Shown: piece after piece, positions 28,775-58,184 of the stretch
Layout of the letters: each line of letters starts with the position of its first letter
Numbering within the stretch: the stretch's first letter is position 1
DNA from: a phage
NCBI GenBank assembly: GCA_024683775.1
Contig: GCA_024683775.1_4106.1
Length of the DNA stretch: 64,000 bases
Reading direction: 5' to 3' (one strand)
Made by a program: the position numbers and the translations under genes
The notes under the pieces: generated by a model
Databases searched by the model: none
The model's input: the letters and a program-made list of their open reading frames with translations, nothing else
What the model was told of the DNA's origin: nothing

Positions 28775-28853
<79 letters not shown>

Positions 28854-28870
28854 CAAAATAAAGGTACACT

Positions 28871-43628: not shown

Positions 43629-43937
43629 ATGTTTCAAACTAACACTCAAGGTTTTGTAATCATCGATTTGAACCAAAACAGCGGTTATTGGATGAAACCT
43701 ACTGACGCATGTATGCAGTTTGATTTTTTAGGTTACAGGATTAGTGTAAGTACTGGTGCTTCTGTACTGCGTGGTGGTTGTATCGTTGAACATCTGGTAA
43801 CAGATCCTGAAGGCCGTGAGTATGAAATCGCAGGTTCAGTACAAGATGCCATTATGTTTGTATGTCAGCGTGAAATGAATAGTTCGAATTCAAATGCACT
43901 GACTCATGCTCTTTCTCAAGAAGTGGAGGTTCGTTAA
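43629..43937 (+). CDS. hypothetical protein
   Basis: 102 aa ORF with a GAGGAA RBS. Confidence 0.55.
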   Translation: MFQTNTQGFVIIDLNQNSGYWMKPTDACMQFDFLGYRISVSTGASVLRGGCIVEHLVTDPEGREYEIAGSVQDAIMFVCQREMNSSNSNALTHALSQEVEVR

Positions 43938-44188
43938 TGAAATATATCGTAGCAGTACTCGTTGCATTTTTACTCACTGCATGTGACGCTTCAACCAAAG
44001 AACGCACAAGTGATTTTATTCTCCCTATTGAATTACAAGAAGCAGGATGTAAGATTTATCGTATGCAAAAGGACGGTGCTGGCGTAACCTTGTATACAGT
44101 TTATTGCCCTAATGCAAATACCAGTACTGGATACAGCAGCGGTAAAACACGAATCAATACTTCAGTGATTAATGGAGTACAACAATGA
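43937..44188 (+). CDS. lipoprotein
   Basis: Signal peptide plus lipobox, 'VAVLVAFLLTAC'. Confidence 0.6.
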   Translation: MKYIVAVLVAFLLTACDASTKERTSDFILPIELQEAGCKIYRMQKDGAGVTLYTVYCPNANTSTGYSSGKTRINTSVINGVQQ

Positions 44189-44553
44189 GCCTTGATACAA
44201 CCCGTGCAACAGATTTATTAACTCGTCTGAATGATGAAGAATATCTTGCTGAAATAAAGTACAAGCTTGAAAAACTGGCACGAAGTGCTGAAGTAATTGA
44301 AGTTAAAGGTCATTTACCAATGGATCAATTCCATACGTTCAAAGAAGATATGGTTTATTATCCAAATGAAATTTGGATTGAGTGGGAACATTGGACTAAC
44401 AAAACTCTACGCATTGAAGGTTATTGTGTAAATTATGAATCTGAACCTGGTGATGTTACAAAAACTCTCTCCATTTGGTGTACAAAAACACATGAACTAG
44501 TTGAGGTGAATTTGAATTATATGAAAGGTTTCCGTTGGGGTGATGTTAAATGA
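44185..44553 (+). CDS. hypothetical protein
   Basis: 122 aa ORF. ATGA overlap upstream. Confidence 0.55.
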   Translation: MSLDTTRATDLLTRLNDEEYLAEIKYKLEKLARSAEVIEVKGHLPMDQFHTFKEDMVYYPNEIWIEWEHWTNKTLRIEGYCVNYESEPGDVTKTLSIWCTKTHELVEVNLNYMKGFRWGDVK

Positions 44554-44825
44554 TTAAAAAACTATTGACAGTTGTCTTTGTATTCTGTACAATGTTTCTT
44601 ACAGCATGTAATGATGACGGCAGGTTTAGTGCAAAAGACTTAGTTCGTCAGGATTGTACATTCACAGGTAAGTCTTTTATTAACGAGTATGAGGTATGTA
44701 CACAATCAGGCCGTATCTGTGGTGGTTGGGAAAAACGTCAGGAGAGATTGTATGTATATGAATGCCCTGGACATCTCAACAAAGTACTAAGCACACACAA
44801 ACTTGTTTATGATAAGGTTGAATAA
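44550..44825 (+). CDS. lipoprotein
   Basis: Signal peptide plus lipobox, 'VVFVFCTMFLTAC'. Confidence 0.6.
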   Translation: MIKKLLTVVFVFCTMFLTACNDDGRFSAKDLVRQDCTFTGKSFINEYEVCTQSGRICGGWEKRQERLYVYECPGHLNKVLSTHKLVYDKVE

Positions 44826-46590: not shown

Positions 46591-47253
46591 ATGTTAGTTA
46601 ATCTTAATTTCATCACTTCTCCTGATTGGGCATTGCGTGGTGTTTCTTTGAACTTTAAAGAAACTAATTTCGACTACATTGGTGATTGTACTTTAGTTAA
46701 TGCTAAATTTGATCCTCATCATCCTTTTTGGGCTGAAATTCATGATCCTAATGTAAACAATAGTACATCTGTTATGACTATTGTACAGACGAAACATACA
46801 GGTATCCTCGCAGGTTACAGACCAGGACATGCGATTGAACACTTCACTGATTATGATGTAGTAGATGAGTATCCAATGATCCATGAAGATGGAAGTTTAT
46901 ACACGTCAGAAGACTTCCGTGCTATCTTTAATAGTACTGATGACATTCTACCAAGTGGTCGTCCACGTCCTGAGTCTTATCTTATGCACTCGTCTTATGG
47001 TGTAGCAGATACGCTTGAACAGATTTTGACGAAGTACAAGAACCTTATTGAAGGTCCAGAAGAAATTGTCATGTGCTATCATCCAGTACTGAAGTCTGAC
47101 CAACCAGAGAGTGGTGGGTGGCGTTGGCATAAGAATGGTGAGTACATCGGTACTAAGCGTAGTAAAGAACGCTTTGAGTACTTGTATGATGAGCCAGATG
47201 TTGAGGTTGTTTTATGTTATAATTTTCTTAAGGTGAAAAAGAAATGTATCTAG
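46591..47253 (+). CDS. hypothetical protein
   Basis: 220 aa ORF with a GAGGA RBS. Confidence 0.6.
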   Translation: MLVNLNFITSPDWALRGVSLNFKETNFDYIGDCTLVNAKFDPHHPFWAEIHDPNVNNSTSVMTIVQTKHTGILAGYRPGHAIEHFTDYDVVDEYPMIHEDGSLYTSEDFRAIFNSTDDILPSGRPRPESYLMHSSYGVADTLEQILTKYKNLIEGPEEIVMCYHPVLKSDQPESGGWRWHKNGEYIGTKRSKERFEYLYDEPDVEVVLCYNFLKVKKKCI

Positions 47254-47486
47254 TATTGAGTTTTGTAGTTGCATTATTGTTTATGTTCTACCCTACACTA
47301 GTAGCAGTAGCCACTAAACGAAAGCTGGTGGATATCACTACTGTATTCTTGCTAAACGTGGCACTCGTTCTAGTGTCTATTATCATTCCCGTGAGCTTTA
47401 CGGTTATTGATATGGCATCTGTATTACTATTCGTCTTCAGTTATCTTATGCTTATTGAAGAAAAACCTGTTGACAAACGTTTGTAG
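47244..47486 (+). CDS. small membrane protein (3 TM)
   Basis: Hydrophobic throughout. A promoter (TTGACA at 47470) is embedded in its 3' end. Confidence 0.55.
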   Translation: MYLVLSFVVALLFMFYPTLVAVATKRKLVDITTVFLLNVALVLVSIIIPVSFTVIDMASVLLFVFSYLMLIEEKPVDKRL

Positions 47487-47497
47487 TACTGTATAAT
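47470..47497 (+). promoter_or_regulatory. sigma70-type promoter
   Basis: TTGACA at 47470-47475, 16 bp spacer, TATAAT at 47492-47497. AGTACTG occupies the spacer. Confidence 0.55.
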
Positions 47498-47544: not shown

Positions 47545-47871
47545 ATGTTATCAGTTCTAATTTCAATTCCTGCTCTAATTCTGTTATGGGTTATGGTTTT
47601 CGAATTCTTCATTAAAGACGAAACCGAGCGTGATGAGTTTCGTGAGTTGTTTATGCTAGACTCACCTATTGCACGAATCTTCTTTGTTGTAGTACTTATT
47701 TCAGTACTGTCATGGTTAGTAAGTTTTGTATTACCAATTGGACCATTTGTTTCAATTATGAATTTAGTTGAGAACATTGTCGGTATTGTGTGGTTTATTA
47801 ATGCATTGTTTGCTGGTAAAGTTTCCATTTGGTTTGATATCTTGAAAGATAAACTAACTAGTAAGAAGTAA
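47545..47871 (+). CDS. small membrane protein (3 TM)
   Basis: Hydrophobic helices. Confidence 0.55.
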   Translation: MLSVLISIPALILLWVMVFEFFIKDETERDEFRELFMLDSPIARIFFVVVLISVLSWLVSFVLPIGPFVSIMNLVENIVGIVWFINALFAGKVSIWFDILKDKLTSKK

Positions 47872-47949
47872 CGTTCAAAAAGTCTCTAATAGTATTAAAT
47901 ACTTCTGTACAAATAATATGTGCAGAAGTATTGCTCGTTAGAGGTTATA

Positions 47950-48315
47950 ATGAAAAAATATATAAGAATGATAATGGTGTTTGTAGTATTCATGCTTTAT
48001 TCAAGGTTCAGTACAGCCGTACCTGCTTACCTTGATTGTATGGGAAACGATGGAACATGGCATGTACTTTCTAATGACCCACAAAATGGAAACAATATTG
48101 TCGTAGATAATGAGGTTTACCGTTTCAGGGCCGAGAGTTTGATTGGGAATAAAAAGGTATCGACATATAAATCAGATGCTGGTATAATAGCAAATGTAAT
48201 ATTGATAGTGGACCCCAAGACAAAGGATGGGGATATTTACATAGTCATTTATCAAGATTCGTCGAACAAACGCGATCAGGATATTGATAAATTGAATATT
48301 CATTGTGAACTTTAA
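47950..48315 (+). CDS. secreted Cys-bracketed small protein family member
   Basis: Signal peptide 'MKKYIRMIMVFVVFMLYSRFSTA'. Cys close to the N-terminus of the mature protein ('LDCMGNDG') and near the C-terminus ('IHCEL'). 'NEVYRF' motif. Confidence 0.55.
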   Translation: MKKYIRMIMVFVVFMLYSRFSTAVPAYLDCMGNDGTWHVLSNDPQNGNNIVVDNEVYRFRAESLIGNKKVSTYKSDAGIIANVILIVDPKTKDGDIYIVIYQDSSNKRDQDIDKLNIHCEL

Positions 48316-48325
48316 GGTATAACAA

Positions 48326-48709
48326 ATGATCAACGATGTAATGCTTTATGTATTAATTACTCCGATTCTTATTAACTCAGTAATAACTATTTCAATGGCA
48401 TTATTTGGTATAGTAGCAATTGTTTATGCGGTTAGTACTGGAAAGTATACTTTAATTAGTAAGGTTGATTCATGGTTCGCATCTGATAGTGTACCATATT
48501 CAGCTAGTATGATTACGATTGGTATTCTAATCGTTGCATTTACACTGCACTGTATTGGTTTTATTAATACAAGTATTTTTTCAGTTTTTATTGGTCTATC
48601 ATTATATCCATCACTTTGGTACTTGATTTATGTAATCGATGTTTGGTATAATAACTACAAGCAGTACAAAGTGAAGAAATCCATTTTATCCAAAGGAAAC
48701 AAATCATGA
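48326..48709 (+). CDS. multi-pass membrane protein
   Basis: About four hydrophobic helices. Confidence 0.55.
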   Translation: MINDVMLYVLITPILINSVITISMALFGIVAIVYAVSTGKYTLISKVDSWFASDSVPYSASMITIGILIVAFTLHCIGFINTSIFSVFIGLSLYPSLWYLIYVIDVWYNNYKQYKVKKSILSKGNKS

Positions 48710-49056
48710 AAGTAATTTTGTTTTTTGTTTGTATGATTATATGTGGTATGTCTTATGCAGAACCATTACCTGGACTAGTCTGTACTGAAGGTGATATTAA
48801 ACACATTTACCAAGGTGATAGCGATGACCATACTATCGTTTATATCGATGGTGAAGTGTATAATTTTGTTAAAGAACATACTGTAGGTGACATTAGTTTT
48901 ACGCAGTACTCGAATGATACTGATCCCAATATGCTTGCATTTCTTCAAGTTGATGTATATGAAGAAAGTAATGGCGAACAGTATGTTAAACTTGTGATGA
49001 TGCGTAAGGCAGCAAAACAGGCAACATTCGGTGGCTTGTGTAAATATGAGGACTAA
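48706..49056 (+). CDS. secreted Cys-bracketed small protein family member
   Basis: Signal peptide. Contains 'LVCTEGD', 'GEVYNF' and 'GLCKYED'. Confidence 0.55.
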   Translation: MKVILFFVCMIICGMSYAEPLPGLVCTEGDIKHIYQGDSDDHTIVYIDGEVYNFVKEHTVGDISFTQYSNDTDPNMLAFLQVDVYEESNGEQYVKLVMMRKAAKQATFGGLCKYED

Positions 49057-49060
49057 ACAT

Positions 49061-49252
49061 ATGTTGATTTATCAATGTGATAACATTCGTGTTATGCAGC
49101 ATCCCTACTTACAAATCTTTGATGTGCAGCAGTATATGGAAGGTGATGATCCAAGAACCTATGGTCGTAAGTATGATTACTTCACTGTAAAGCAGTGTCG
49201 TGACATCAAAGAAGTACGACAATTAGTTCAAGAACTTCAAAATAAAGGTTGA
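49061..49252 (+). CDS. hypothetical protein
   Basis: ATG at 49061 after a GAGGA RBS. The stop TGA lies inside the cassette TTGACT. Confidence 0.5.
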   Translation: MLIYQCDNIRVMQHPYLQIFDVQQYMEGDDPRTYGRKYDYFTVKQCRDIKEVRQLVQELQNKG

Positions 49253-49278
49253 CTTCGGTCAACCTTTTTTGTTATAAT
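49244..49278 (+). promoter_or_regulatory. terminator/promoter cassette copy 2
   Basis: AAAGGTTGAC-TTCG-GTCAACCTTT hairpin plus T-run. TTGACT at 49249-49254, 18 bp spacer, TATAAT at 49273-49278. Conserved leader ATTTCATCAACTACTGG. Confidence 0.7.
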
Positions 49279-49307
49279 TATTTCATCAACTACTGGGGAT
49301 TTTAATT

Positions 49308-49748
49308 ATGTACGTATATCGTTTTGAACTTAAATTCAGTTATATTGAACCTAACTTAGATCCAGCAAAAACAGTAGGGCCGTTCGCACGGTACTCTTCA
49401 CGATACAGTACTAAAAATGGATTTGACCGTTTGTGCATGACCACGCCTTCGCAATTCCAACCAGAACCAACTGAAGATGGAATCTATTCAATCAAACGTG
49501 GCTGGGCATTTGGCTGTCAGAGTTTGAATGATTTGTTTAAGTTCTTTACTATGGACTTGGGTAAATTACATCGTGCAGGGTTTGCTGTATCAGTATATGA
49601 AGTTCCTGATAATCATGTTGACATTGGTCGTAGTCAGGTTCAGTACTATTGTGGTAGTGCCAATCTGGTTCGTATCATGTCAGTGAGAGAAGCAAAGGAT
49701 GAGTACCGCCAAAGTAAAAGAGTAATACATGAGGCTGTATATGGATAA
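49308..49748 (+). CDS. hypothetical protein
   Basis: 146 aa ORF. Confidence 0.55.
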   Translation: MYVYRFELKFSYIEPNLDPAKTVGPFARYSSRYSTKNGFDRLCMTTPSQFQPEPTEDGIYSIKRGWAFGCQSLNDLFKFFTMDLGKLHRAGFAVSVYEVPDNHVDIGRSQVQYYCGSANLVRIMSVREAKDEYRQSKRVIHEAVYG

Positions 49749-50085
49749 GACTCAAATAGAATTAAAAAAATTTGTATCGTTTTATCTACCCAATGACCCA
49801 CGTTGTACACAATATGATGTTGCATATTACAATGCATTGACTACGCAGTTAATGAAGAAATTCAAACAATGTTTGACTGTATTCAATGATGATGGTAGAC
49901 GTAGATATAGAATCATTCCAATGAATGATGAAAACGATAACTACTTTGACTTTGATGTTGTTTTTAGAGCATACAGTGATGATAGAATAAAATTAAATTA
50001 TGAGCAAATAATGCTTGACCTGAGTGTTATCTGTGTTATAATTACTCACATAGCCGAACTTGATGGTTTAAAAGAATGGTATTAA
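49741..50085 (+). CDS. hypothetical protein
   Basis: ATG at 49741 overlaps the upstream stop. Confidence 0.5.
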   Translation: MDKTQIELKKFVSFYLPNDPRCTQYDVAYYNALTTQLMKKFKQCLTVFNDDGRRRYRIIPMNDENDNYFDFDVVFRAYSDDRIKLNYEQIMLDLSVICVIITHIAELDGLKEWY

Positions 50086-50099
50086 CTTAGAGGATAATC

Positions 50100-50366
50100 A
50101 TGAAGCTTAAATTACAATACAATGGTTTTACTTTGCGTAACGACACTGAGTTTGTCAATCGTTCACCAGGTGCCGAGTTGTTTTTGCGAGAGATGAACAT
50201 TCCTTTCGTCATCACTACTGTTGGTGACCGTGAAGTGCTACAATACGCAGAGCATCCAGTTATTGATGTTCCGTGGTATTCTGAGCATATGTATATGGAT
50301 ATGGCCCGTCGCTACGACTGTAAGTTCGTAGTTGAAGGTGATAAAATTACAGTCCAATTCAAATAA
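50100..50366 (+). CDS. hypothetical protein
   Basis: 88 aa ORF with a GAGGA RBS. Confidence 0.55.
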   Translation: MKLKLQYNGFTLRNDTEFVNRSPGAELFLREMNIPFVITTVGDREVLQYAEHPVIDVPWYSEHMYMDMARRYDCKFVVEGDKITVQFK

Positions 50367-50377
50367 GGTAACTTAAA

Positions 50378-50671
50378 ATGATCAGTACTTCAGTAAATGC
50401 AAGCATCGTGGCAGACGTAGAAATGGTTAAAGAATGTACAGACGAAACCCTTCGCAACATGTACATCAATGATTTGATTTCAGAGTACGGAAGTCGTGGT
50501 GTTCATGAGTTTGTTCGCCTAAGCGGTGAATTGATGAAGAATCGCATTCGTATGAAGCTTAATGTGCATCCAAAAGCATGGGCGTTTACAATGAAGTACG
50601 CTGAAGATATTGTTGAATTGCGTCGCAATGATGTGTATAATCGTTTACACAATGGTACATTAAAGGACTAA
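50378..50671 (+). CDS. hypothetical protein
   Basis: 97 aa ORF. Confidence 0.55.
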   Translation: MISTSVNASIVADVEMVKECTDETLRNMYINDLISEYGSRGVHEFVRLSGELMKNRIRMKLNVHPKAWAFTMKYAEDIVELRRNDVYNRLHNGTLKD

Positions 50672-50676
50672 ATTAT

Positions 50677-50707
50677 AGGAATCCGTAAAAGGATTCCTGT
50701 TCTTGTT
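50677..50707 (+). terminator. intrinsic terminator
   Basis: AGGAATCC-GTAAAA-GGATTCCT hairpin followed by a T-rich tract. Confidence 0.6.
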
Positions 50708-50721
50708 TATAAGGTAATAAA

Positions 50722-50946
50722 ATGAAATATCTAGTACTAGTACTGCTATTCTTGAGTACTGTTGTATGTGCTAAACCAAAGTATCATGTAGTGTGTATCA
50801 ACGAGATGGAAGGGTATACTGAAACATATAAGAACCATATTGTTGAAGTTGCAGCCCAAGGTTCCTATGGGACCATCATCTTCCTTAAGAACAATGTGAT
50901 TGTTCAGTACAAAAAAGATTCAAATTGTAAAGTGACTAAAAATTGA
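50722..50946 (+). CDS. secreted Cys-bracketed small protein family member
   Basis: Signal peptide 'MKYLVLVLLFLSTVVCA'. Contains 'VVCINE' and 'SNCKVTKN'. Confidence 0.5.
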   Translation: MKYLVLVLLFLSTVVCAKPKYHVVCINEMEGYTETYKNHIVEVAAQGSYGTIIFLKNNVIVQYKKDSNCKVTKN

Positions 50947-51016
50947 TCTAGATCAATTTTTCAGATATTCTCTGTAAATAATAGCAGTACAGAACATTAT
51001 TTTACGGAGGTGTAAT

Positions 51017-51253
51017 ATGGAAACTATAATCATCATATGTGCGTTGTTTGCATTTTTGGTAATGTGGTCACCAACATTCATTGCATATAAAATGAAAAAT
51101 AAAAATGCAGAAGCAATTATGTACGTAAACTTATGTTGCATACTAACTTATGGAATACTTTTATTCTTTACTGAATTTACATTAATCCCAGTAGTAGTTT
51201 GTTCATCAATGTTTATTTGGTTGTTTCTGCTTTATGAATCTATTAAAAAATAA
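51017..51253 (+). CDS. small membrane protein (2-3 TM)
   Basis: Hydrophobic helices. Confidence 0.55.
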   Translation: METIIIICALFAFLVMWSPTFIAYKMKNKNAEAIMYVNLCCILTYGILLFFTEFTLIPVVVCSSMFIWLFLLYESIKK

Positions 51254-51307
51254 AAGATATAGGGTTGGTAATATGCCATCCCTTTTACTTTATGTGGGGT
51301 TTAATTA

Positions 51308-51880
51308 ATGAATAGAAAAGGTAAGTTTAAAGTATCAAAGAAGAACAAAAGTTCTAGATTTAGACCTATAACTTTAACTTTTAAGGCTAAAGAAGAATTA
51401 ACTGCACTTAGTAAAAAGATAATTTCATCTAAGATTAAAGTATCATACGTAAATTCGGTAAAATTTCAGAAGGTTAAACCACAAGACAAACTCATTTCAC
51501 TTATATTTAAACGTAATGATTTTGAGATATTAGTAGATGATTATAGAGCCTATAATGCTGGATTCATTCATGTCACTTGTAATACCGAACTAACTGAGTT
51601 GGAACATTTGACATGTATCATAAGTGTAGATAACGGTGTGGTGAAGTACAATTTTTTACATTTTACCAATATCAATAATGGAATGGGTGTACAATCCAGA
51701 CCTATAGTACCTACATGTGATGTAACTAATTTAGCAAAGCTCAATGAAGAAGAATATTTTCAAGAAAGCATTGTAACTGAGCATTTAGATGCTATAATAG
51801 CAACTTACAAAGAATGCATATGGGTTTTGAATGCGATAAAGCCCAAATTGTGTTTAATGAATGTCGTTCGTGATTTATAA
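51308..51880 (+). CDS. acidic-FQxS motif paralog family protein (longer, basic N-terminus)
   Basis: Motif 'LNEEEYFQESIVTE'. Confidence 0.6.
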   Translation: MNRKGKFKVSKKNKSSRFRPITLTFKAKEELTALSKKIISSKIKVSYVNSVKFQKVKPQDKLISLIFKRNDFEILVDDYRAYNAGFIHVTCNTELTELEHLTCIISVDNGVVKYNFLHFTNINNGMGVQSRPIVPTCDVTNLAKLNEEEYFQESIVTEHLDAIIATYKECIWVLNAIKPKLCLMNVVRDL

Positions 51881-51893
51881 CTGGAGATGAAGT

Positions 51894-52337
51894 ATGGGTT
51901 GGATTAACGTTAATAGCATTGAGCTAAATGAGCAAGACATATTTGCCTTTGTTAATTTGGTAGAGAACATTGCTATTAAAGGTCGTCTGTTTAGTTCATC
52001 GGACGGTAAAAAATGGATCTCTCTTATGAACGACAATGGCGAGATTTATGACGTTATGCAACTACCTCATTGGGCTTATAAGAATACATCTGATGATGTG
52101 ATGGCTGCTGTTATGCGTGAGTTTGAGAAGCTGCCAGGTGGTGATATTAAGAACATCGTATTCAATGCAGAACGCATGAACTACACACCAGAGCAGCTTC
52201 AACAGTTGGCAATTGCTGCCTATCAAGCTGCCATTAAGAAACCTGAATGTGTGATATTAAAGTACACACCGAACTTGAAGTTAACACTAGAAGATATGGA
52301 TTCCTTTATCTTCAGTTCAGAACTTAAACAGTACTGA
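51894..52337 (+). CDS. hypothetical protein
   Basis: 147 aa ORF with a GGAG RBS. Confidence 0.55.
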   Translation: MGWINVNSIELNEQDIFAFVNLVENIAIKGRLFSSSDGKKWISLMNDNGEIYDVMQLPHWAYKNTSDDVMAAVMREFEKLPGGDIKNIVFNAERMNYTPEQLQQLAIAAYQAAIKKPECVILKYTPNLKLTLEDMDSFIFSSELKQY

Positions 52338-52408
52338 TTTGACTTTGGAACAACCATTTCATATGTGATATAATCTTAAGTGTCTGTTGAAATAAACAGC
52401 ACATGAAG

Positions 52409-52416
52409 TATAAATA
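52409..52416 (+). promoter_or_regulatory. exact T4-type late promoter consensus TATAAATA
   Basis: TATAAATA lies 33 nt upstream of the ATG at 52449, downstream of a sigma70-like promoter (TATAAT at 52369-52374). Confidence 0.3.
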
Positions 52417-52448
52417 TTAAAGTAATTTATCTCTTTAAGGAGTATGAA

Positions 52449-52832
52449 ATGGTTGATAAATGGAATAAGAAAGATCCATCGCATGATGTGGATATTTCTG
52501 GAATTGATAATGCACATAAGCATAAGTATCTTGATTCACTAGGTCTACTAAAGCCTGACCAAAGTCTTGCACATGATCGTCCTTCACGTGAAAAAGCTTT
52601 CAGTCTAGAATCACTAGGCCATGAATTGAATCGTGTATTTGAAGATCATCCAATTTATGTACGTGATATCATTGAGAAACTTAAAGTGACTCCTAAAGAG
52701 CACTTCAAGGCAACAGTACACGCAGCATTCCGTGCACTACATGAAGCACTAAAGAAAACTCATAACCTTCGCAAGATTCATGATGACATCGTGAACTCTA
52801 TTGAAGGCGAAAAACATAAGTTTAAAAAATAA
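52449..52832 (+). CDS. hypothetical protein sharing the 'Y..SLGLL' motif with 54195..55688
   Basis: 'KHKYLDSLGLLKPDQ' compares with 'LRYVNSLGLLNATQ'. Both also share a '...KALQAVPKEE / KLKVTPKEH' segment. Confidence 0.55.
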   Translation: MVDKWNKKDPSHDVDISGIDNAHKHKYLDSLGLLKPDQSLAHDRPSREKAFSLESLGHELNRVFEDHPIYVRDIIEKLKVTPKEHFKATVHAAFRALHEALKKTHNLRKIHDDIVNSIEGEKHKFKK

Positions 52833-52838
52833 TTAAAA

Positions 52839-52872
52839 GGGGTTGACTTCAGTCAGCCCTTTGTCGTATAAT
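52839..52872 (+). promoter_or_regulatory. terminator/promoter cassette copy 3
   Basis: GGGGTTGAC-TTCA-GTCAGCCC hairpin. TTGACT at 52843-52848, 18 bp spacer, TATAAT at 52867-52872. Confidence 0.65.
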
Positions 52873-52919
52873 ATTTTCATCAAGTGATACAAAATACAAA
52901 CAACGTGAGGTATTAAATT

Positions 52920-53033
52920 ATGCAAGGTACTAAATTCATCATCGCTGCCCTAATCGCTGCTGTTGTAGTGGGTACAGTATGTTATTCAATTGACACCTAT
53001 ATCAATACACCTAGTGTTGAACAAACCAAATAA
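52920..53033 (+). CDS. 37-aa membrane peptide (not in ORF track)
   Basis: MQGTKFIIAALIAAVVVGTVCYSIDTYINTPSVEQTK, after a GAGG RBS. Confidence 0.35.
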   Translation: MQGTKFIIAALIAAVVVGTVCYSIDTYINTPSVEQTK

Positions 53034-53041
53034 GGGATATC

Positions 53042-53299
53042 ATGGCTGAAACATTATCACTATATGCGTTAGTACTGTTATTTGTCGGATTTCTTCCCGC
53101 ACTCATTACAGCCATTCGTGTTGTTAAACATGAAGCTGCATTGATTGTATGTAGTATTGGGTCGAACATTCTATTGTATTTCTTTTTGACAAATACTATT
53201 GTACTGTTTGCTTTCTTTATCATGATTCTGTGGGTACTTGTAATTCTCGGATTCTTCATTTGGTCATTGGTTGATCCTAAGAAAAAACAGGAGAAGTGA
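53042..53299 (+). CDS. small membrane protein (3 TM)
   Basis: Hydrophobic helices. Confidence 0.55.
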   Translation: MAETLSLYALVLLFVGFLPALITAIRVVKHEAALIVCSIGSNILLYFFLTNTIVLFAFFIMILWVLVILGFFIWSLVDPKKKQEK

Positions 53300-53300
53300 A

Positions 53301-53597
53301 ATGAAATTAATTATTGTAATGATGATGTGTTTGGCTTTCCCAGTACTGGCTACTCCTAATCTGGACTGCACACTGTTGCGTTCAGATGGTGACACACTTG
53401 AAATCAACACATATGAACTCTTTGGTCCAAGTGTAGTGGAGAATGAAACCACCTACAATTTCAAAGCTATTGACTTTGAAGGTAATGTTCCAGTACTAAC
53501 TACAATGACTATTGACAAAACTACTTTACTCGGACGAATCACCACACAACGCGGAGAAAGTAAAACATTCACAGCGAAAGCTGACTGTAACTACTAA
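53301..53597 (+). CDS. secreted Cys-bracketed small protein family member
   Basis: Signal peptide 'MKLIIVMMMCLAFPVLA'. Contains 'LDCTLL', 'TTYNF' and 'ADCNY'. Confidence 0.55.
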   Translation: MKLIIVMMMCLAFPVLATPNLDCTLLRSDGDTLEINTYELFGPSVVENETTYNFKAIDFEGNVPVLTTMTIDKTTLLGRITTQRGESKTFTAKADCNY

Positions 53598-53617
53598 TGG
53601 TATAGTACAGTGAAAAT

Positions 53618-53649
53618 AGGGTTGACTTCGGTCAACCTTTATATATAAT
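53618..53649 (+). promoter_or_regulatory. terminator/promoter cassette copy 4
   Basis: AGGGTTGAC-TTCG-GTCAACCTTT hairpin. TTGACT at 53622-53627, 16 bp spacer, TATAAT at 53644-53649. Confidence 0.65.
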
Positions 53650-53662
53650 GGAAGAAATAAAC

Positions 53663-54190
53663 ATGGAACGTTGGAAATTAATTCCTGATTATGACTATTC
53701 AATTTCTGATCATGGAAGAGTAAGAAACGAACAAACTGGATATATAAGTTGTGGATTTAAAAATAAAGATGGGTATGTGAAGGTCGATTTGTATCGCAAT
53801 TCTGTGAAAAATAGAAAGGCGATTCATCGACTAGTAGCTGAAGCATTTTTACCACCACCCACACAGAAACAGTTACAGTGGGCAAGTAGAACAAAGAAAA
53901 AAGTTGTTCACATAAACCATAAAGATTGTAATAGAAGTAACAATCACTATTTGAATTTGGAATGGAACACAGCATCTGAAAACGTACTATATTCTTATTC
54001 ACATGGTAACGCAACAACTAATCGTGGTGCTGCTGTGTTGACATGGGAAATTGTAAGAGAAATAAGAAAAGATTATAATGATAATTATAATGATGTGATA
54101 GAATATGCACGAGAAAATTGTAATAAATACCGTGTATGTAAAAAAACAATACGTCGTATTTTATACAATCAAACATGGATAGAGGATTAA
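53663..54190 (+). CDS. HNH-type homing endonuclease (NUMOD4-like plus HNH_3-like)
   Basis: 'MERWKLIPDYDYSISDHGRVRN', 'IHRLVAEAFLPPP' and 'INHKDCNRSNNHYLNLEW'. The track start at 53648 overlaps the -10 element. Confidence 0.7.
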   Translation: MERWKLIPDYDYSISDHGRVRNEQTGYISCGFKNKDGYVKVDLYRNSVKNRKAIHRLVAEAFLPPPTQKQLQWASRTKKKVVHINHKDCNRSNNHYLNLEWNTASENVLYSYSHGNATTNRGAAVLTWEIVREIRKDYNDNYNDVIEYARENCNKYRVCKKTIRRILYNQTWIED

Positions 54191-54194
54191 AAAT

Positions 54195-55688
54195 ATGCCA
54201 CAAGATAATGGGGATATGAAACATCGTAATGGTGGACTAGTACAACACTCGGATAAATGGGCCGACCGAAATCGTCGCAAAAATAGTTATCAAGCAGGAC
54301 AAGGTTCACGTGGTTCACGTAATCAAGGGACAGGTTTAGCTGGTAAGGCAAACGCAGAAGCAGGTGAAGTTAAGAGTACTGAGAACATGACTGAGCTAGA
54401 AAAGCTACGTTATGTTAACTCATTAGGTCTTCTTAACGCAACACAGAAACAACGCCTTGCTGATATGGAACGTGCTGAGAAAGAACAAGCAGTTCCTAAA
54501 GAAGAACCAAAACCAGAAGCTCCTAAAGCAGCTAACCCTGTTAAAGAGTTATCTGATAACTTAGGTAAGATCTTTGCTAACAAACCACAGTTGATTCAGG
54601 GTATTGTCAAAGCACTACAGGCAGTTCCTAAAGAAGAACTCAAAGGTAAAGCACAAGCTGTACTTGATGCAATGAAAGGTAATAAGAGCACTGAACCCAC
54701 TGAAGTATTCAGTACTATCATGCGTGCACTTGAAGGTACACACAAAGAAGATTCGAAAGAACCTGAACAGGGTGAAGCAAGTCTTGATGGTATTCTTAAA
54801 ACTTTTGATAGTATTGGTAAAGCAGACCGTGCTAATGCCCAGCAAGTCAAGAATGTACTGGCTAAACTTGAAAACCGTTTAGAAGGTAAAGACGATAAGG
54901 TTAAGCTCGTATCAGATGCAGTTAACAGTGCACTTAAATCTTATGTACAAGGTGAGAAAAGTCGCTTCGTAACAGCTATGGATGCTGCATTCAACACTAT
55001 GAAAAAGTATGAAGCAGAACATGGTGAGAAAGTGACACCTGATGGATATCTACTACGTAAAGATGAAGAAGGTGCAGTTGAACAGAAAGATGTTGAGCCT
55101 GAGCAAGAAGATCTACCTGATACCGTTGATATGGATGGATACATTCATCGTCCTGAGATGGAAGAGTTTGGGTCAGATAAAGAAGGTTTTGAACATGCAA
55201 TGGCAGTATATAAAGCATTAGTTAAAAATCCAGATTATGCTAACCGTTTTGTTGACGAGTTTGATAGTGCATGGAATAACTACAAAGACAAAGGTTATGA
55301 CTTCCCTGCTGAAGCTGCATTCTTTGAACTTGGTAAACTATTAGCTAAACATGGAATTGACGTTGGTTCATCTGATTCTGACGGTATGGAAGAAGAACAT
55401 CTTGAAATGACTGATAAATCAATTCATGAACTTCAAAAGTTAATGATGTGGATATCCGAGATTGGTAAAAAAGCAGGTGCTGATAGTAAAAGTATCAACA
55501 AAAATATTAGTTGGATTAAAGATAATGTTGGTAACAATGCTCGTAAACTTCAAAAGGCTTGGGCTGATTTAGTAAATGGTGCAGATGATGTTGACATTGA
55601 ATCACCAGAAGCATATGAGTATGCACTAACTACACTTGATAACTCATTCAAAGAGTACGACCGTGGTGTTGGAAAGGATAAAAAATAA
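54195..55688 (+). CDS. large acidic hypothetical protein
   Basis: 497 aa. Gly/Arg/Asn/Gln-rich N-terminus followed by a long Glu/Lys/Asp-rich helical region. Confidence 0.6.
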   Translation: MPQDNGDMKHRNGGLVQHSDKWADRNRRKNSYQAGQGSRGSRNQGTGLAGKANAEAGEVKSTENMTELEKLRYVNSLGLLNATQKQRLADMERAEKEQAVPKEEPKPEAPKAANPVKELSDNLGKIFANKPQLIQGIVKALQAVPKEELKGKAQAVLDAMKGNKSTEPTEVFSTIMRALEGTHKEDSKEPEQGEASLDGILKTFDSIGKADRANAQQVKNVLAKLENRLEGKDDKVKLVSDAVNSALKSYVQGEKSRFVTAMDAAFNTMKKYEAEHGEKVTPDGYLLRKDEEGAVEQKDVEPEQEDLPDTVDMDGYIHRPEMEEFGSDKEGFEHAMAVYKALVKNPDYANRFVDEFDSAWNNYKDKGYDFPAEAAFFELGKLLAKHGIDVGSSDSDGMEEEHLEMTDKSIHELQKLMMWISEIGKKAGADSKSINKNISWIKDNVGNNARKLQKAWADLVNGADDVDIESPEAYEYALTTLDNSFKEYDRGVGKDKK

Positions 55689-55694
55689 ACATTT

Positions 55695-55730
55695 AAAAGG
55701 TTGACTTCGGTCAACCTTTTTTTGTAAATA
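55695..55730 (+). promoter_or_regulatory. terminator/promoter cassette copy 5 (degenerate -10)
   Basis: AAAAGGTTGAC-TTCG-GTCAACCTTTT hairpin. TTGACT at 55701-55706 and TAAATA at 55725-55730. Confidence 0.55.
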
Positions 55731-55759
55731 TTGTAGAGGGTTTTATAAGAGGTAATGCA

Positions 55760-56011
55760 ATGTTTAAATATGTTTTATTTTCACTTGTATTGTTTACTGA
55801 TATAGTTTATAGTACTGAATACCAGTGCTCTATTGCTAGACAGGAGTTTAGAAACGGTGAGTTCTATACCAAGTCTTACACTAGAGGATTGGTACATGAC
55901 AATAATAAAACTATAGGGTTCAATGCATTTGATAACAAAGATCGATATACGTCTGGAATACTATCTGAACGTAAGTCGGATGTAATAGGTATCGAGCATG
56001 AATTCCGGTGA
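55760..56011 (+). CDS. small secreted protein
   Basis: Signal peptide 'MFKYVLFSLVLFTDIVYS'. Confidence 0.5.
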   Translation: MFKYVLFSLVLFTDIVYSTEYQCSIARQEFRNGEFYTKSYTRGLVHDNNKTIGFNAFDNKDRYTSGILSERKSDVIGIEHEFR

Positions 56012-56372
56012 CACAGTTGCAATGTGTAATGATATTGAGAGTACTAAGAAAGTATATACTAATGGTGAAAATACCTTTAGATTCCACAATCTTACTACCA
56101 ATGAAAGTTTATACTTCTACAACTGTAAAGAGTTCATTAAACCTGTGGATAACTCATGTGATATGCCGGAGCCAAAAGCTGCTGTATGTGAGGAACCACA
56201 ATCCAAAGCTGACAAAGATTCAAAAGATAAGAAAGACAAAGCTGACAAATTGGATAAAAAAGAAAACAAAAAGAAAGCTAAAGATGATAAAGATAAAAAG
56301 TCCCCTAAGCCAAATCCATTTGAAAAGCCAAAGAATGAAAAGCCAAAACCAGACATGACATGTAAAATATAA
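55998..56372 (+). CDS. protein with a Cys-bracketed domain and a Lys/Asp-rich low-complexity tail
   Basis: 'AMCNDIE...TFRFHN...YNCKEF' followed by 'KADKDSKDKKDKADKLDKKENKKKAKDDKDKK'. Overlaps the upstream ORF by 14 nt. Confidence 0.5.
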   Translation: MNSGDTVAMCNDIESTKKVYTNGENTFRFHNLTTNESLYFYNCKEFIKPVDNSCDMPEPKAAVCEEPQSKADKDSKDKKDKADKLDKKENKKKAKDDKDKKSPKPNPFEKPKNEKPKPDMTCKI

Positions 56373-56379
56373 AAGAAAA

Positions 56380-56412
56380 GGGTTGACTTCGGTCGGCCCT
56401 TTTTGCTATAAT
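56380..56412 (+). promoter_or_regulatory. terminator/promoter cassette copy 6
   Basis: GGGTTGAC-TTCG-GTCGGCCC hairpin plus T-run. TTGACT at 56383-56388, 18 bp spacer, TATAAT at 56407-56412. Leader CATTTCATCAACTACTGGAGG. Confidence 0.7.
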
Positions 56413-56438
56413 CATTTCATCAACTACTGGAGGCAAAC

Positions 56439-56852
56439 ATGTTAAAAGTTATTTTCCGTTCTATCAGTTCATTACTTCTTATGATTAGTTCAGTTTCTTA
56501 TGCAAATGAAGTATCTGACTTGTTTGAGAAGAATTACCCAACTGCACAAGAGATGGGTGTTTTAAAATGCAAGCTAACTTCGTACAACATCATCGGCAGT
56601 AAACTTGTACTGGAACATGAACGTAGTACACCAATCCCTCTAGTAGAAGAAGGCAGTACCTTTAGCTTCAAGTACGGGGTGAACGTAACATCTGGTGTAA
56701 TGAACAATGTTGATGCAGAGACTGGTTCAACATGGAGTACTAGCGGTAAAGATGTGTTTCATCGTATGCGTGAAAATGGTAAACTGAAGTACGTATATGA
56801 AAGTTCATTCATGAAACGTGTATTCATTATAAAAAATTGTGTACCAGCATAA
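56439..56852 (+). CDS. secreted Cys-bracketed protein family member
   Basis: Signal peptide '...LLLMISSVSYA'. Contains 'LKCKLTS', 'STFSFKY' and 'KNCVPA'. Confidence 0.55.
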   Translation: MLKVIFRSISSLLLMISSVSYANEVSDLFEKNYPTAQEMGVLKCKLTSYNIIGSKLVLEHERSTPIPLVEEGSTFSFKYGVNVTSGVMNNVDAETGSTWSTSGKDVFHRMRENGKLKYVYESSFMKRVFIIKNCVPA

Positions 56853-56863
56853 GGAACAACATC

Positions 56864-57139
56864 ATGCGTTCATTTGAAAACTTAATCGGTAAACTTCGCT
56901 TACAAGAAATTGAAGATGATGTGAAGGAATTATCTGAAACTAAGAGTTACATTCATTTAGATGAACTGTTTATTAAGTACGGTGAGATTGGTTTTAAGTC
57001 ATTATTTGTTTTTGTCATGAAGGTGCATAGTTTAAAGTACTTTGATTTGAGTTCAAAAGACGGACAACCAAATCTGTATTACATGTATTATCTTAAGAAC
57101 ATAGACGAAGCTAATACATTATTCTTAGAATATATGTAG
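56864..57139 (+). CDS. hypothetical protein
   Basis: ATG at 56864 within track ORF 56837..57139. Confidence 0.5.
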   Translation: MRSFENLIGKLRLQEIEDDVKELSETKSYIHLDELFIKYGEIGFKSLFVFVMKVHSLKYFDLSSKDGQPNLYYMYYLKNIDEANTLFLEYM

Positions 57140-57148
57140 GGGGTAAAA

Positions 57149-57487
57149 ATGGAACATCATTTTGAATTAATTAATAAGGTATCATTTTATGTAGTATCGT
57201 TAATTTGGGTGTATTACATGTTTTGTTACATTATTGCATTCTTCCGATACACAACCTTGTATCAACGCATATACTACGATGCACCCATTTCATTTATGAT
57301 GTTCTGTGCATGTACGTGGGGGATAATTGAAGCACTGGTATGTGGATATAGTACTGACGAATTAAATCTCGTATCGGGGTTGACATTACTAACAATTGCC
57401 ATTATGATAGCTACTGTTCCGATATTTTTGCTCTTTAAACTGCTTCATCGTATTGATGAGTGGCGTAATAAAATCCCTGAAAAGTAA
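57149..57487 (+). CDS. small 3-4 TM membrane protein family, array 1 copy 1
   Basis: Hydrophobic helices and a conserved basic C-terminus, 'RIDEWRNKIPEK'. Confidence 0.6.
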   Translation: MEHHFELINKVSFYVVSLIWVYYMFCYIIAFFRYTTLYQRIYYDAPISFMMFCACTWGIIEALVCGYSTDELNLVSGLTLLTIAIMIATVPIFLLFKLLHRIDEWRNKIPEK

Positions 57488-57496
57488 GGATTGATA

Positions 57497-57838
57497 ATGA
57501 TTTTTTACACTAATGCGTTTGCTTATGCCGTTGCATCAATCTACATTGTGTACTTCTTATTTGGTGGAGTACTGTACTTCTTTAAGTACAAAACATTGTT
57601 TAACCGAATGTATCCAAATCATCCAATTGTAGTAGTACTTTTGATTATTTCTGTTGCTCACATCATTGTAGAAACAATAATGGGTATCAGTGCAGTACAT
57701 TACAGTCTAGGTACTATTGTAATTATTACTATGATCATCGCATACATTTTAGTAATGGGTTTTGGTTTATTTGGAAATGTAGCAATGAAATTGTATAATC
57801 GAATCAAAACATTACGTGATAATCTACCGGAGCGTTGA
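57497..57838 (+). CDS. small 3-4 TM membrane protein family, array 1 copy 2
   Basis: C-terminus 'RIKTLRDNLPER'. Confidence 0.6.
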   Translation: MIFYTNAFAYAVASIYIVYFLFGGVLYFFKYKTLFNRMYPNHPIVVVLLIISVAHIIVETIMGISAVHYSLGTIVIITMIIAYILVMGFGLFGNVAMKLYNRIKTLRDNLPER

Positions 57839-57839
57839 G

Positions 57840-58184
57840 ATGTATAATTTAAATTTAATATCATATATCATAACAACACTGTTTACTTTCTATGCCTTTG
57901 TTGGTATACTCCTACTGTACTTTAAATTTTATAAACTTTTTGATCGTTTTTATCCGTCATTAGAACATGAATTCTTATTAGTGATGTACATATGTCTAAC
58001 GTTTATGTCTACATTTTTCACTGCATCTGATGGTATCATTGGTATTAAAGCTGAAGAACCAAATGGGAGTACGCTTGTTGCCTTTATTCTGGTAGGATTT
58101 TTCAGTACTTATATTACCTTTATTTCAGGATGTACCGTGATTGATTATCTTGTGAAATTACGAGATAAAATGCCAAATCGATAG
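57840..58184 (+). CDS. small 3-4 TM membrane protein family, array 1 copy 3
   Basis: C-terminus 'LVKLRDKMPNR'. Confidence 0.6.
   Translation: MYNLNLISYIITTLFTFYAFVGILLLYFKFYKLFDRFYPSLEHEFLLVMYICLTFMSTFFTASDGIIGIKAEEPNGSTLVAFILVGFFSTYITFISGCTVIDYLVKLRDKMPNR

What the first reader, a model, noticed from the sequence alone, without database searches (positions are those of the whole stretch)
47950..56852. Family of small secreted proteins bracketed by N- and C-terminal cysteines, each in its own promoter-bounded module
ORFs 47950, 48706, 50722, 53301 and 56439, and perhaps 55760/55998, share these features:
- a signal peptide;
- a Cys shortly after the predicted cleavage site (LDCMG, LVCTEG, VVCINE, LDCTLL, LKCKLT);
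- a central x-x-(Y/F)-x-F motif (EVYRF, EVYNF, TTYNF, STFSF, NTFRF);
- a Cys 3-6 residues from the C-terminus (IHCEL, GLCKYED, SNCKVTKN, ADCNY, KNCVPA).

This suggests a disulfide-closed periplasmic fold. They alternate with small membrane proteins and are separated by terminator/promoter cassettes. Two lipoproteins, at 43937 and 44550, lie nearby.

Multiple exported early proteins could remodel the envelope or block receptors.
Basis: seen in the sequence. Interest (0 to 1): 0.5.

Follow-up and report, generated by a model that had tools for sequence, protein, structure and literature searches.

The report
Phage periplasmic disulfide-stapled mini β-barrels
An E. coli jumbo phage encodes several small exported proteins, at least three predicted to be tiny β-barrels pinned shut by one disulfide like bacterial lysozyme inhibitors, so they may protect the infected cell's envelope, but they are not one gene family and their function is untested.

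Summary
The window comes from an Asteriusvirus jumbo coliphage (99.5% identical to phage EC.P1). The quoted sequence features exist. Five ORFs (47950, 48706, 50722, 53301, 56439) have signal-peptide-like N-termini and exactly two mature cysteines, one near each end. Both cysteines are invariant in all orthologs (P about 3e-7 against the window background).

They are not one demonstrable family:
- 47950 and 48706 are true paralogs (hhalign 92-93%).
- 53301 is unproven once signal peptides are removed.
- 56439 has no sequence similarity to them.
- 50722 (57 aa mature) is too small for the fold.
- 55760 has a single cysteine.
- 55998 has no signal peptide.

The terminator/promoter cassette is real (8 copies), but it bounds multi-gene units. 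My best guess is early periplasmic binder/inhibitor proteins, possibly acting against tail lysozymes as T4 Spackle does. Structure confidence is high; function confidence is modest. All databases list these genes only as hypothetical proteins.

The parts
47950..48315 (+). Family A (phrog_25709). Exported 98-aa mature protein with Cys7 and Cys96; predicted 8-stranded β-barrel with Cys in β1 and β8; pI 4.7.
48706..49056 (+). Family B (phrog_27330), a paralog of A. Exported, about 97 aa mature, Cys7 and Cys93, pI 4.4. Its start overlaps the stop of the upstream 4-TM gene by 4 nt (ATGA).
   Evidence: phmmer E about 1e-6. hhalign on mature regions 92-93%, E = 4e-7. BFVD orthologs match the A model.
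53301..53597 (+). Family D. Exported 81-aa mature protein, Cys6 and Cys79, pI 4.4. Possible divergent A/B-type barrel; membership unproven. It starts 1 nt after the stop of the 3-TM gene 53042.
   Evidence: Cys, Y-x-F and G columns align in register with A/B. Mature-only tests are not significant. Present only in the EC.P1 group and JNE01.
56439..56852 (+). Family E. Exported 115-aa mature protein with an N-terminal helix and a β-barrel; Cys22 is in the first strand and Cys112 in the last; pI 7.9. First gene after cassette 56381.
50722..50946 (+). Family C (phrog_31284). Exported 57-aa mature mini-protein, Cys8 and Cys52, basic (pI 9.0). Too short for an 8-stranded barrel; its size and N-to-C disulfide bracket resemble T5 Llp, but it is not a lipoprotein.
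   Evidence: Llp facts. No structure prediction was available for it.
55760..56011 (+). Family F (phrog_28901). Exported 65-aa mature protein with a single Cys (position 5) and no C-terminal Cys. Not a bracketed member.
   Evidence: There is no lipobox, despite the label 'lytic conversion lipoprotein' in the fEgEco12 record.
56022..56372 (+). Protein G (ORF 55998; likely start 56022, MCNDIES). No signal peptide, 5 Cys, Lys-rich low-complexity tail. Not a member.
47545..47871 (+). 4-TM small membrane protein (phrog_31401) immediately upstream of A.
   Evidence: The same position is conserved in RaK2 and L009.
48326..48709 (+). 4-TM small membrane protein (phrog_31707) between A and B; translationally coupled to B.
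53042..53299 (+). 3-TM small membrane protein with a weak Imm-like motif, immediately upstream of D.
   Evidence: Labelled 'immunity to superinfection' in record OQ718158. No supra-threshold Pfam support.
51017..51253 (+). 3-TM small membrane protein downstream of C; related to 47244. Its Pfam Imm_superinfect match is sub-threshold (E = 0.014).
47470..47497 (+). Perfect σ70-type promoter (TTGACA-16-TATAAT) that heads the unit 47545-A-48326-B-49061.
49247..49264 (+). Terminator/promoter cassette (GGTTGACTTCGGTCAACC, then a T-run, then TATAAT) that closes the A/B unit. Other copies are at 41120, 52841, 53620, 55699, 56381, 61005 and 61588.
43937..44188 (+). Neighbouring lipoprotein (lipobox LTAC), phrog_902 with a weak match to the Cor superinfection-exclusion PHROG. 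Context only.

Best explanation
A (47950), B (48706) and E (56439), and possibly D (53301), are early-expressed proteins. They are exported by the Sec pathway, their signal peptides are cleaved, and they are oxidised in the periplasm. The product is a soluble mini β-barrel of about 10-13 kDa in which a single disulfide staples the first strand to the last. This is the architecture of the bacterial MliC/PliC/ACP/PhiA inhibitors of peptidoglycan hydrolases.

The most likely role is as periplasmic protein-binding inhibitors that protect the infected cell's envelope. My preferred target is the basic GH24 tail lysozyme of superinfecting related phages, which would make them a β-barrel functional analog of T4 Spackle. 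They may act together with the small membrane proteins to which B and D are translationally coupled.

The shown steps are the signal-peptide-like N-termini, the conserved Cys pair, the A-B paralogy, the predicted barrel fold with Cys in the terminal strands, the σ70-type promoters and the restriction to jumbo phages. The inferred steps are export and cleavage, disulfide formation, early timing, and everything about the target and function.
For: Sequence and family:
- Signal-peptide features and two invariant terminal Cys are seen in every ortholog.
- The A-B paralogy is robust without signal peptides.

Structure:
- The AF2 models are confident and all-β, with Cys in the first and last strands.
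- In ACP, MliC and PliC the barrel is exported, about 85-103 aa mature, and its β1-β8 disulfide is conserved. ACP inhibits lysozyme without the MliC motifs (PMC5507604).

Precedent and plausibility:
- A phage periplasmic lysozyme inhibitor used for superinfection exclusion exists in T4 Spackle, which binds a highly positively charged surface of gp5 lysozyme (PMC7677548).
- Asteriusvirus phages carry a GH24 T4-type lysozyme, annotated as a tail lysozyme in 121Q, with pI 9.19 (PMC12805682). Mature A, B and D are acidic, pI 4.4-4.7.

Context and evolution:
- The genes lie behind strong σ70-type promoters and terminator/promoter cassettes.
- They sit next to a Cor-like lipoprotein and weakly Imm-like TM proteins.
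- The A-TM-B arrangement is conserved out to Klebsiella phage RaK2.
- The genes are much more diverged than their cytoplasmic neighbours (62% vs 93% identity to 121Q, p = 0.001) and vary in presence, yet dN/dS is 0.2-0.4, so they are maintained.
Against: - No experimental data exist, and no database annotation goes beyond 'hypothetical protein'.
- The MliC/PliC inhibitory motifs SxSGAxY and YxxxTKG are absent, and Pfam MliC is not hit.
- E is not acidic (pI 7.9).
- The E model rests on 5 similar sequences, and 2 of its 5 models failed.
- The membrane-protein partners are missing in one related locus, L011.
- Signal peptides were judged by rule only, not by SignalP.
Confidence: 0.4

Rival explanations
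1. The proteins are receptor or channel blockers of the Llp/Cor type. The exported proteins would bind the periplasmic face of an outer-membrane receptor, or an inner-membrane DNA-entry component, and switch it off. That would exclude superinfecting phages at adsorption or injection, not at the cell-wall step.
For: - T5 Llp is a small early β-rich exported protein whose N- and C-termini are tied by an essential disulfide (C11-C58). The authors state that Llp-like folds are common in phages.
- C (57 aa, C8-C52) matches Llp in size and bracket.
- A Cor-like lipoprotein (43937) and weakly Imm-like TM proteins are neighbours.
- The fast divergence and variable presence fit receptor-specific exclusion.
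Against: - A, B, D and E are not lipoproteins, so they are not tethered to the outer membrane.
- The A and E models are 8-stranded barrels, not the 4-strand Llp fold.
Confidence: 0.22
2. The proteins are periplasmic subunits or regulators of the adjacent small multi-TM proteins. Each membrane protein plus barrel would form one device, for example an Imm-like injection block or a lysis-timing or lysis-inhibition sensor. On this reading the barrel has no independent target.
For: - The order TM-A-TM-B is conserved in Asteriusvirus, RaK2 and the metagenomic locus L009.
- B overlaps the stop of 48326 by 4 nt, and D starts 1 nt after 53042.
- The TM neighbours of A and B diverge as fast as A and B do: 44-60% identity to 121Q against 93% for cytoplasmic genes.
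Against: - L011 keeps A- and B-like genes without the TM genes.
- The two 4-TM proteins are not paralogs of each other, so this is not a duplicated two-gene module.
- E is followed by a non-membrane gene.
- Imm_superinfect matches are below the Pfam threshold.
Confidence: 0.15
3. The proteins are calycin/lipocalin- or YceI-like carriers that bind a small hydrophobic ligand in the periplasm, such as a lipid, a polyisoprenoid, a siderophore or a signal molecule. Proteins would not be their target.
Against: - At about 90 residues and with strands of 6-10 residues, the barrels are at the small end. They resemble PliC or Cap15 more than lipocalins with a cavity and flanking helix.
- No ligand-binding motif is recognised.
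- The strong sequence turnover fits protein-protein interfaces better.
Confidence: 0.1
4. The set is heterogeneous. Apart from the A/B pair, the shared features (signal peptide, two terminal Cys, β-rich) would be convergent properties of small periplasmic proteins, so there is no 'family'.
For: - No significant mature-region similarity links D, E, C, F or G to A/B or to each other.
- C is too small for it.
- A terminal disulfide is a generic way to stabilise small exported proteins; Spackle and Llp also have one.
Against: - The bracket is far more frequent here than chance allows.
- A and E share the fold class, the Cys placement in the terminal strands, a similar Cys-Cys span (89 vs 90 residues) and a turn+[YF]xF motif opening β4.
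- At the B locus of L009 the core has become unrecognisable while the B-like signal peptide and the ECTYDE tail remain. Loss of detectable similarity between true relatives therefore does happen here.
Confidence: 0.45

Closest known systems
MliC/PliC/ACP/PhiA periplasmic peptidoglycan-hydrolase (lysozyme) inhibitors of Gram-negative bacteria
   Same: - Exported through a cleaved signal peptide.
- About 85-103 aa mature.
- Eight-stranded antiparallel β-barrel.
- A single conserved disulfide joins β1 and β8 (PMC5507604).
   Different: - These proteins are phage-encoded, not bacterial.
- There is no sequence similarity: Pfam MliC is not hit, and the SxSGAxY and YxxxTKG motifs are absent.
- Several unrelated copies occur in one genome.
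- E has an extra N-terminal helix and extra short strands.
- Inhibition has not been tested.
T4 Spackle (gp61.3)
   Same: - A small early phage protein.
- Signal peptide, periplasmic location and one disulfide.
- It acts in superinfection exclusion by inhibiting the tail lysozyme gp5, and it works alongside a small membrane protein, Imm (PMC7677548).
- The context here likewise contains small, weakly Imm-like membrane proteins.
   Different: - Spackle is an α-helical bundle, whereas these are β-barrels.
- There is no homology.
- The function here is only inferred.
T5 Llp / Cor superinfection-exclusion lipoproteins
   Same: - Small β-rich early exported phage proteins.
- The N- and C-termini are tied by an essential disulfide, C11-C58 in Llp.
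- This is the best analog for C (50722) and for the neighbouring lipoprotein 43937, which has a weak Cor PHROG match.
   Different: - A to E have SPase I sites, not lipoboxes.
- The A and E models have 8 or more strands, not 4.
- No FhuA-type target is known for these phages.
Cap15 minimal β-barrel (CBASS effector)
   Different: By established knowledge, the Cap15 barrel is cytoplasmic, fused to TM helices, and binds cyclic dinucleotides. The phage proteins carry their own signal peptide and a disulfide, so they act in the periplasm. Sequence identity is 5-7%.

Membership tests
MliC/PliC lysozyme inhibitor family (Pfam PF09864) | Sequence match to the family profile | tested here: not met
   Pfam scan at E <= 1 gives no MliC hit for any candidate. 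NCBIfam gives none. PDB sequence searches with the A3 and A5 profiles find no relatives.
MliC/PliC lysozyme inhibitor family (Pfam PF09864) | Inhibitory motifs SxSGAxY (loop 4) and YxxxTKG (β6) | tested here: not met
   A regex scan over all collected members of A, B, D, E, C and F finds no SxSGAxY. YxxxTKG occurs in only 1 of 16 A sequences. The motif definitions are from PMC5507604.
MliC/PliC/ACP structural class | Exported eight-stranded antiparallel β-barrel of about 85-103 residues | tested here: met
   - The AF2 model of A has 8 strands in 98 residues (pLDDT 85.6).
- The AF2 model of E has a helix plus a barrel (pLDDT 90.4).
- These are predictions, not experimental structures.
MliC/PliC/ACP structural class | Disulfide between β1 and β8 | tested here: inconclusive
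   The invariant Cys lie in the first and last strands of both models (A: Cys7 in E4-9 and Cys96 in E91-97; E: Cys22 in E18-30 and Cys112 in E105-114).
MliC/PliC/ACP structural class | Binds and inhibits a lysozyme or peptidoglycan hydrolase | not testable with these tools
   This needs biochemistry, or at least complex prediction with the phage GH24 lysozyme.
A/B family of this phage group (phrog_25709 + phrog_27330) | Significant mature-region sequence similarity to A or B | tested here: met
   This is met for 47950 and 48706 only: hhalign 92-93%, E = 4e-7, with cross-hits among orthologs down to E = 9e-9. It is not met for 53301 (E about 0.2; shuffle p 0.07-0.19), 56439, 50722, 55760 or 55998.
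T5 Llp / Cor superinfection-exclusion lipoproteins | Lipobox with +1 Cys (outer-membrane lipoprotein) | tested here: not met
   A to F have SPase I type sites, and the Cys inside the signal peptide of C is not conserved in orthologs. Only 43937 and 44550 have LTAC lipoboxes. 43937 hits the Cor PHROG weakly, E = 9e-4.
T5 Llp / Cor superinfection-exclusion lipoproteins | Small β fold with an N-to-C disulfide | tested here: inconclusive
   C (57 aa, Cys8-Cys52) fits in size and bracket (Llp facts).
T4 Imm (Pfam PF14373 Imm_superinfect), for the neighbouring TM proteins | Profile match above the gathering threshold | tested here: not met
   51017 scores E = 0.014 and 15.7 bits against a 27.9-bit cut-off. 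The RaK2 ortholog of 47244 scores E = 0.074. 53042 gets no hit.

The most novel reading that the evidence does not exclude
Asteriusvirus and Alcyoneusvirus jumbo phages carry a battery of phage-borne PliC/ACP-like, disulfide-stapled β-barrels. These would act in the periplasm as inhibitors of the tail-associated peptidoglycan hydrolases of competing phages. That would make them a β-barrel counterpart of T4 Spackle that arose independently. The barrel core would be swapped or diverge beyond recognition between a conserved signal peptide and a conserved C-terminal Cys tail, as seen at the B locus of L009, giving each lineage a different exclusion spectrum.
Probability: 0.18. Interest if true: 0.65.

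Novelty: new variant of a known kind. Interest (0 to 1): 0.42.

Why it matters
Superinfection exclusion and envelope protection are understood mechanistically for very few lytic phages (T4 Imm and Spackle, T5 Llp). Jumbo phages have hundreds of unannotated early genes.

If these stapled mini-barrels are periplasmic inhibitors, three things would follow:
- They would add a second, structurally unrelated solution to the Spackle problem.
- They would link a bacterial anti-lysozyme fold to phage-phage competition.
- They would explain a hypervariable block of the Asteriusvirus genome.

In practice such genes would affect the design of cocktails of therapeutic jumbo coliphages, through cross-exclusion between related phages. 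They could also supply small, stable binders of lysozyme-type enzymes. If instead they are generic periplasmic proteins of unknown role, the result is still a useful annotation upgrade for several PHROG families (25709, 27330) and three unclassified families.

Tried and rejected
- Single-family hypothesis. It was rejected for 50722, 55760 and 55998, and it remains unproven for 53301 and 56439 at sequence level. The early phmmer link between 47950 and 53301 (E about 0.005) was largely driven by signal peptides and vanished on mature regions.
- 55760 and 55998 as one frameshifted gene. The two ORFs keep the same frames and a 10-nt spacing in 121Q, and there is no slippery site, so they are treated as separate genes.
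- Giant proteins hit by the A/B/D profile in the exhaustive search. They are Big_2 or flagellin-type repeat proteins with summed weak matches, not relatives.
- Anti-CBASS or cyclic-nucleotide sponge, suggested by the Cap15 hit. It is rejected because of the signal peptide and the disulfide.
- Duplicated two-gene TM+barrel module. The two 4-TM proteins are not detectably paralogous.
- Positive selection. NG86 gives dN/dS of 0.2-0.4 with saturated dS, so the divergence is old or mosaic and not demonstrably adaptive.
- PADLOC, NCBIfam and Pfam gave nothing, and the fEgEco12 genome paper does not discuss these genes.

Full report
**Source and setting.** The window is low-GC (about 34%) and essentially all genes are on the + strand. 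The region 47900-56900 is 99.5% identical to Escherichia phage EC.P1. It is 93%-covered at 99% identity by other Asteriusvirus jumbo coliphages and about 86% identical to 121Q and PBECO4. All genes of the finding are annotated 'hypothetical protein' in these records, apart from a few unsupported labels.

**Check of the observation.**
- Every quoted peptide is present.
- Six ORFs (47950, 48706, 50722, 53301, 55760, 56439) have a basic n-region, a hydrophobic core of 9-13 residues and small residues at -3/-1. They have one N-terminal hydrophobic segment only. The interleaved ORFs 47545, 48326, 51017 and 53042 have 3-4 TM segments.
- Five of the six have exactly two Cys in the mature part, one near each end.
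- I collected orthologs from seven related phage loci and from the 5.8-billion-protein collection. Both Cys are invariant in each family, although identities fall to 40-60%.
- In the other 145 window proteins, a Cys in the last 8 residues occurs in 17 and a Cys in residues 19-32 occurs in 27. The joint expectation is about 0.02 per protein, and 5 of 8 exported proteins gives P about 3e-7. The positional windows were chosen after seeing the data, so this number is indicative.

**Corrections to the observation.**
- TTYNF belongs to 53301. ORF 50722 has no such motif.
- The bare [YF]xF motif occurs in 54% of all window proteins. Only the form preceded by a turn is enriched (4/5 vs 14/150, p = 6e-4).
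- ORF 55760 has one Cys.
- ORF 55998 (probable start 56022) has no signal peptide.

**Is it one family?**
- Pairwise and PHROG results link 47950 (phrog_25709) with 48706 (phrog_27330).
- With signal peptides removed, hhalign still gives 92-93% probability and E = 4e-7. These two are true paralogs. Both are retained in Klebsiella phage RaK2 (Alcyoneusvirus) and in metagenomic relatives.
- ORF 53301 aligns in register with them in the Cys, Y-x-F and G columns. On mature sequence this is not significant: hhalign E about 0.2, and 145-373 of 2000 shuffles reach the real HMM score.
- ORFs 56439, 50722, 55760 and 55998 show no significant similarity to A/B or to each other.
- An exhaustive HMMER search of 1.84 billion cluster representatives with the A/B/D profile found only about ten small proteins, all of this phage group. 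It also found repeat proteins (Big_2, flagellin) that are summation artefacts. The family is therefore narrow and phage-specific.
- Pfam, NCBIfam, PADLOC and PDB sequence searches give nothing.

**Structure.**
- AlphaFold2 on mature 47950, with a 23-sequence A/B/D alignment, gives pLDDT 85.6 and pTM 0.75. The model has eight β-strands, with Cys7 in strand 1 and Cys96 in strand 8.
- In BFVD only A/B orthologs match strongly.
- AlphaFold2 on mature 56439 gives pLDDT 90.4 and pTM 0.83. Only 5 sequences were allowed, and 3 of the 5 models are confident. The model has an N-terminal helix, then a β-domain whose first strand holds Cys22 and whose last strand holds Cys112.
- So A/B and E belong to the same fold class and place the Cys pair in the same way. 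The Cys-Cys span is 89 residues in A and 90 in E. In both models the turn+[YF]xF motif opens strand 4.
- The fold is very common, so this is architectural likeness and not proof of homology.

**Comparison with known systems.**
[quoted passage not shown] Mature ACP is 103 residues and is exported through a cleaved signal peptide. ACP inhibits lysozyme although it lacks the MliC/PliC motifs SxSGAxY and YxxxTKG (PMC5507604). A, B, D and E also lack these motifs. Membership of MliC/PliC therefore fails at sequence level, while the architecture matches.
- T4 Spackle: this is the functional precedent for a phage-made periplasmic lysozyme inhibitor. It is helical, has one disulfide, inhibits the gp5 tail lysozyme by engaging a highly basic surface, and acts alongside the membrane protein Imm (PMC7677548).
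- Asteriusvirus lysozyme: these phages carry a GH24 T4-type lysozyme with pI 9.19, annotated in 121Q as 'baseplate hub subunit and tail lysozyme' (PMC12805682). Mature A, B and D are acidic at pI 4.4-4.7, but E is not.
- T5 Llp: this is a 4-strand β mini-protein whose termini are tied by an essential C11-C58 disulfide (bioRxiv 10.64898/2026.03.26.714494). It is the best analog for the 57-residue C, though C is not a lipoprotein.

**Genomic anatomy.**
- A conserved cassette occurs 8 times on the + strand against 0.17 expected. Its sequence is AAAGGGTTGACTTCGGTCAGCCCTTTTTGCTATAAT followed by ATTTCATCAAC. Each copy starts within about 10 nt of a gene end.
- The -35 hexamer of the cassette is the 5' arm of a UUCG-loop terminator hairpin.
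- The cassettes delimit multi-gene units:
  - 47545(4TM)-A-48326(4TM)-B-49061, which runs from a perfect σ70 promoter at 47470 to cassette 49247.
  - 52920(TM)-53042(3TM)-D.
  - HNH plus 54195.
  - F plus G.
  - E plus 56864 plus three paralogous TM genes.
- B overlaps the stop of 48326 by 4 nt, and D starts 1 nt after 53042.
- The order TM-A-TM-B is conserved in RaK2 and L009, but the TM genes are missing in L011.
- Three small TM proteins (47244, 51017, 53042) show only sub-threshold likeness to T4 Imm.

**Evolution.**
- Against 121Q, the exported proteins are 43-78% identical (median 62%). Cytoplasmic neighbours have a median of 93% (Mann-Whitney p = 0.001). C, D, E and F are absent from some lineages, and E is duplicated in SHEFM2K.
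- dN/dS is 0.2-0.4 and dS is saturated. These are maintained genes in old or mosaic segments, not clear cases of positive selection.
- At the B position of locus L009, the gene keeps a B-like signal peptide and the ECTYDE tail, but its core is unrecognisable. Cores at this locus can therefore be replaced or diverge beyond detection.

**Conclusion.** The 'family' is best described as several families of exported, two-cysteine mini-proteins. At least three of them (A, B, E) are predicted to be PliC/ACP-like stapled β-barrels. The structural reading is well supported by prediction. The function is inferred from architecture, context and precedent only. My preferred function is a periplasmic inhibitor or binder that serves superinfection exclusion or envelope protection, most plausibly against a lysozyme-type hydrolase. 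I put about 40% on that, with receptor blocking, partnership with a membrane protein and ligand binding as live rivals.

Noticed in passing
window 41120, 49247, 52841, 53620, 55699, 56381, 61005, 61588 (+ strand): A bifunctional terminator/promoter cassette, AAAGGGTTGACTTCGGTCAGCCCTTTTTGCTATAAT followed by ATTTCATCAAC. The -35 TTGACT is the 5' arm of a UUCG-loop terminator hairpin. There are 8 copies against 0.17 expected, and each starts within about 10 nt of a gene end.
   Followed up: partly
window 53648-54190 (+): An HNH_3/NUMOD4 homing-endonuclease ORF sits between cassette 53620 and gene 54195. It is present in this window and in EC.P1, but absent from vB_Ec-M-J, fEgEco12, 121Q and others. 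It looks like a recent mobile insertion, and the cassette's -10 element overlaps its first ATG.
   Followed up: partly
L009 5748-6137 (metagenomic relative, Logan SRR30815946): The gene at the position of B keeps a B-like signal peptide (MKIVLFFIVMFMCGVSFA) and a C-terminal ECTYDE tail with the Cys bracket. Its 129-aa core has no detectable similarity to B. This points to cassette-like replacement or extreme divergence between conserved ends.
   Followed up: partly
window 47244-47486, 51017-51253, 53042-53299 (+): Three small 3-TM proteins share a P-x-x-(I/V)-A…(R/K)…N motif reminiscent of T4 Imm. 47244 and 51017 are related (E = 5e-4). Pfam Imm_superinfect matches are only sub-threshold. One GenBank record labels two of them 'immunity to superinfection'.
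   Followed up: partly
window 57149-58184 and 62486-63820 (+): There are two tandem arrays of paralogous 3-4-TM small membrane proteins (phrog_19285 and relatives). The first array lies directly downstream of E in the same transcription unit.
   Followed up: no
window 43937-44188 and 44550-44825 (+): These are two true lipoproteins (lipobox LTAC). 43937 is phrog_902 with a weak match to the Cor superinfection-exclusion PHROG. 44550 has five Cys in its mature part, counting the lipidated +1 Cys. Different GenBank records call them 'Cor superinfection exclusion protein' or 'lytic conversion lipoprotein'.
   Followed up: partly
window 55760-56011 (+); fEgEco12 g556: The fEgEco12 record labels the ortholog of 55760 'lytic conversion lipoprotein'. 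The protein has no lipobox (…IVYS|TEYQC), so this is probably a mis-annotation.
   Followed up: yes
window 56022-56372 (+): This protein has no signal peptide, five conserved Cys and a long Lys/Asp-rich low-complexity tail that ends in MTCKI. It is co-transcribed with the exported single-Cys protein 55760 between two cassettes. Its function is unknown.
   Followed up: no
window 52449-52832 and 54195-55688 (+): Orthologs are annotated as virion structural proteins in 121Q and related records, although they lie in a region with σ70-type early-looking promoters. 54195 encodes a 497-aa Cys-free, highly charged protein.
   Followed up: no
window 47872-47949 (+): An imperfect hairpin of about 12 bp (TACTTCTGTACA…TGTGCAGAAGTA) lies in the short spacer between the 4-TM gene 47545 and A. 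It has no T-run, so it could be an RNA processing or attenuation element.
   Followed up: no
window 21649-28854 (+): ARAGORN predicts a cluster of seven tRNA genes: Ser (two), Met (three), Asn and Thr. One Ser call has an unusual ACT anticodon and a long length.
   Followed up: no
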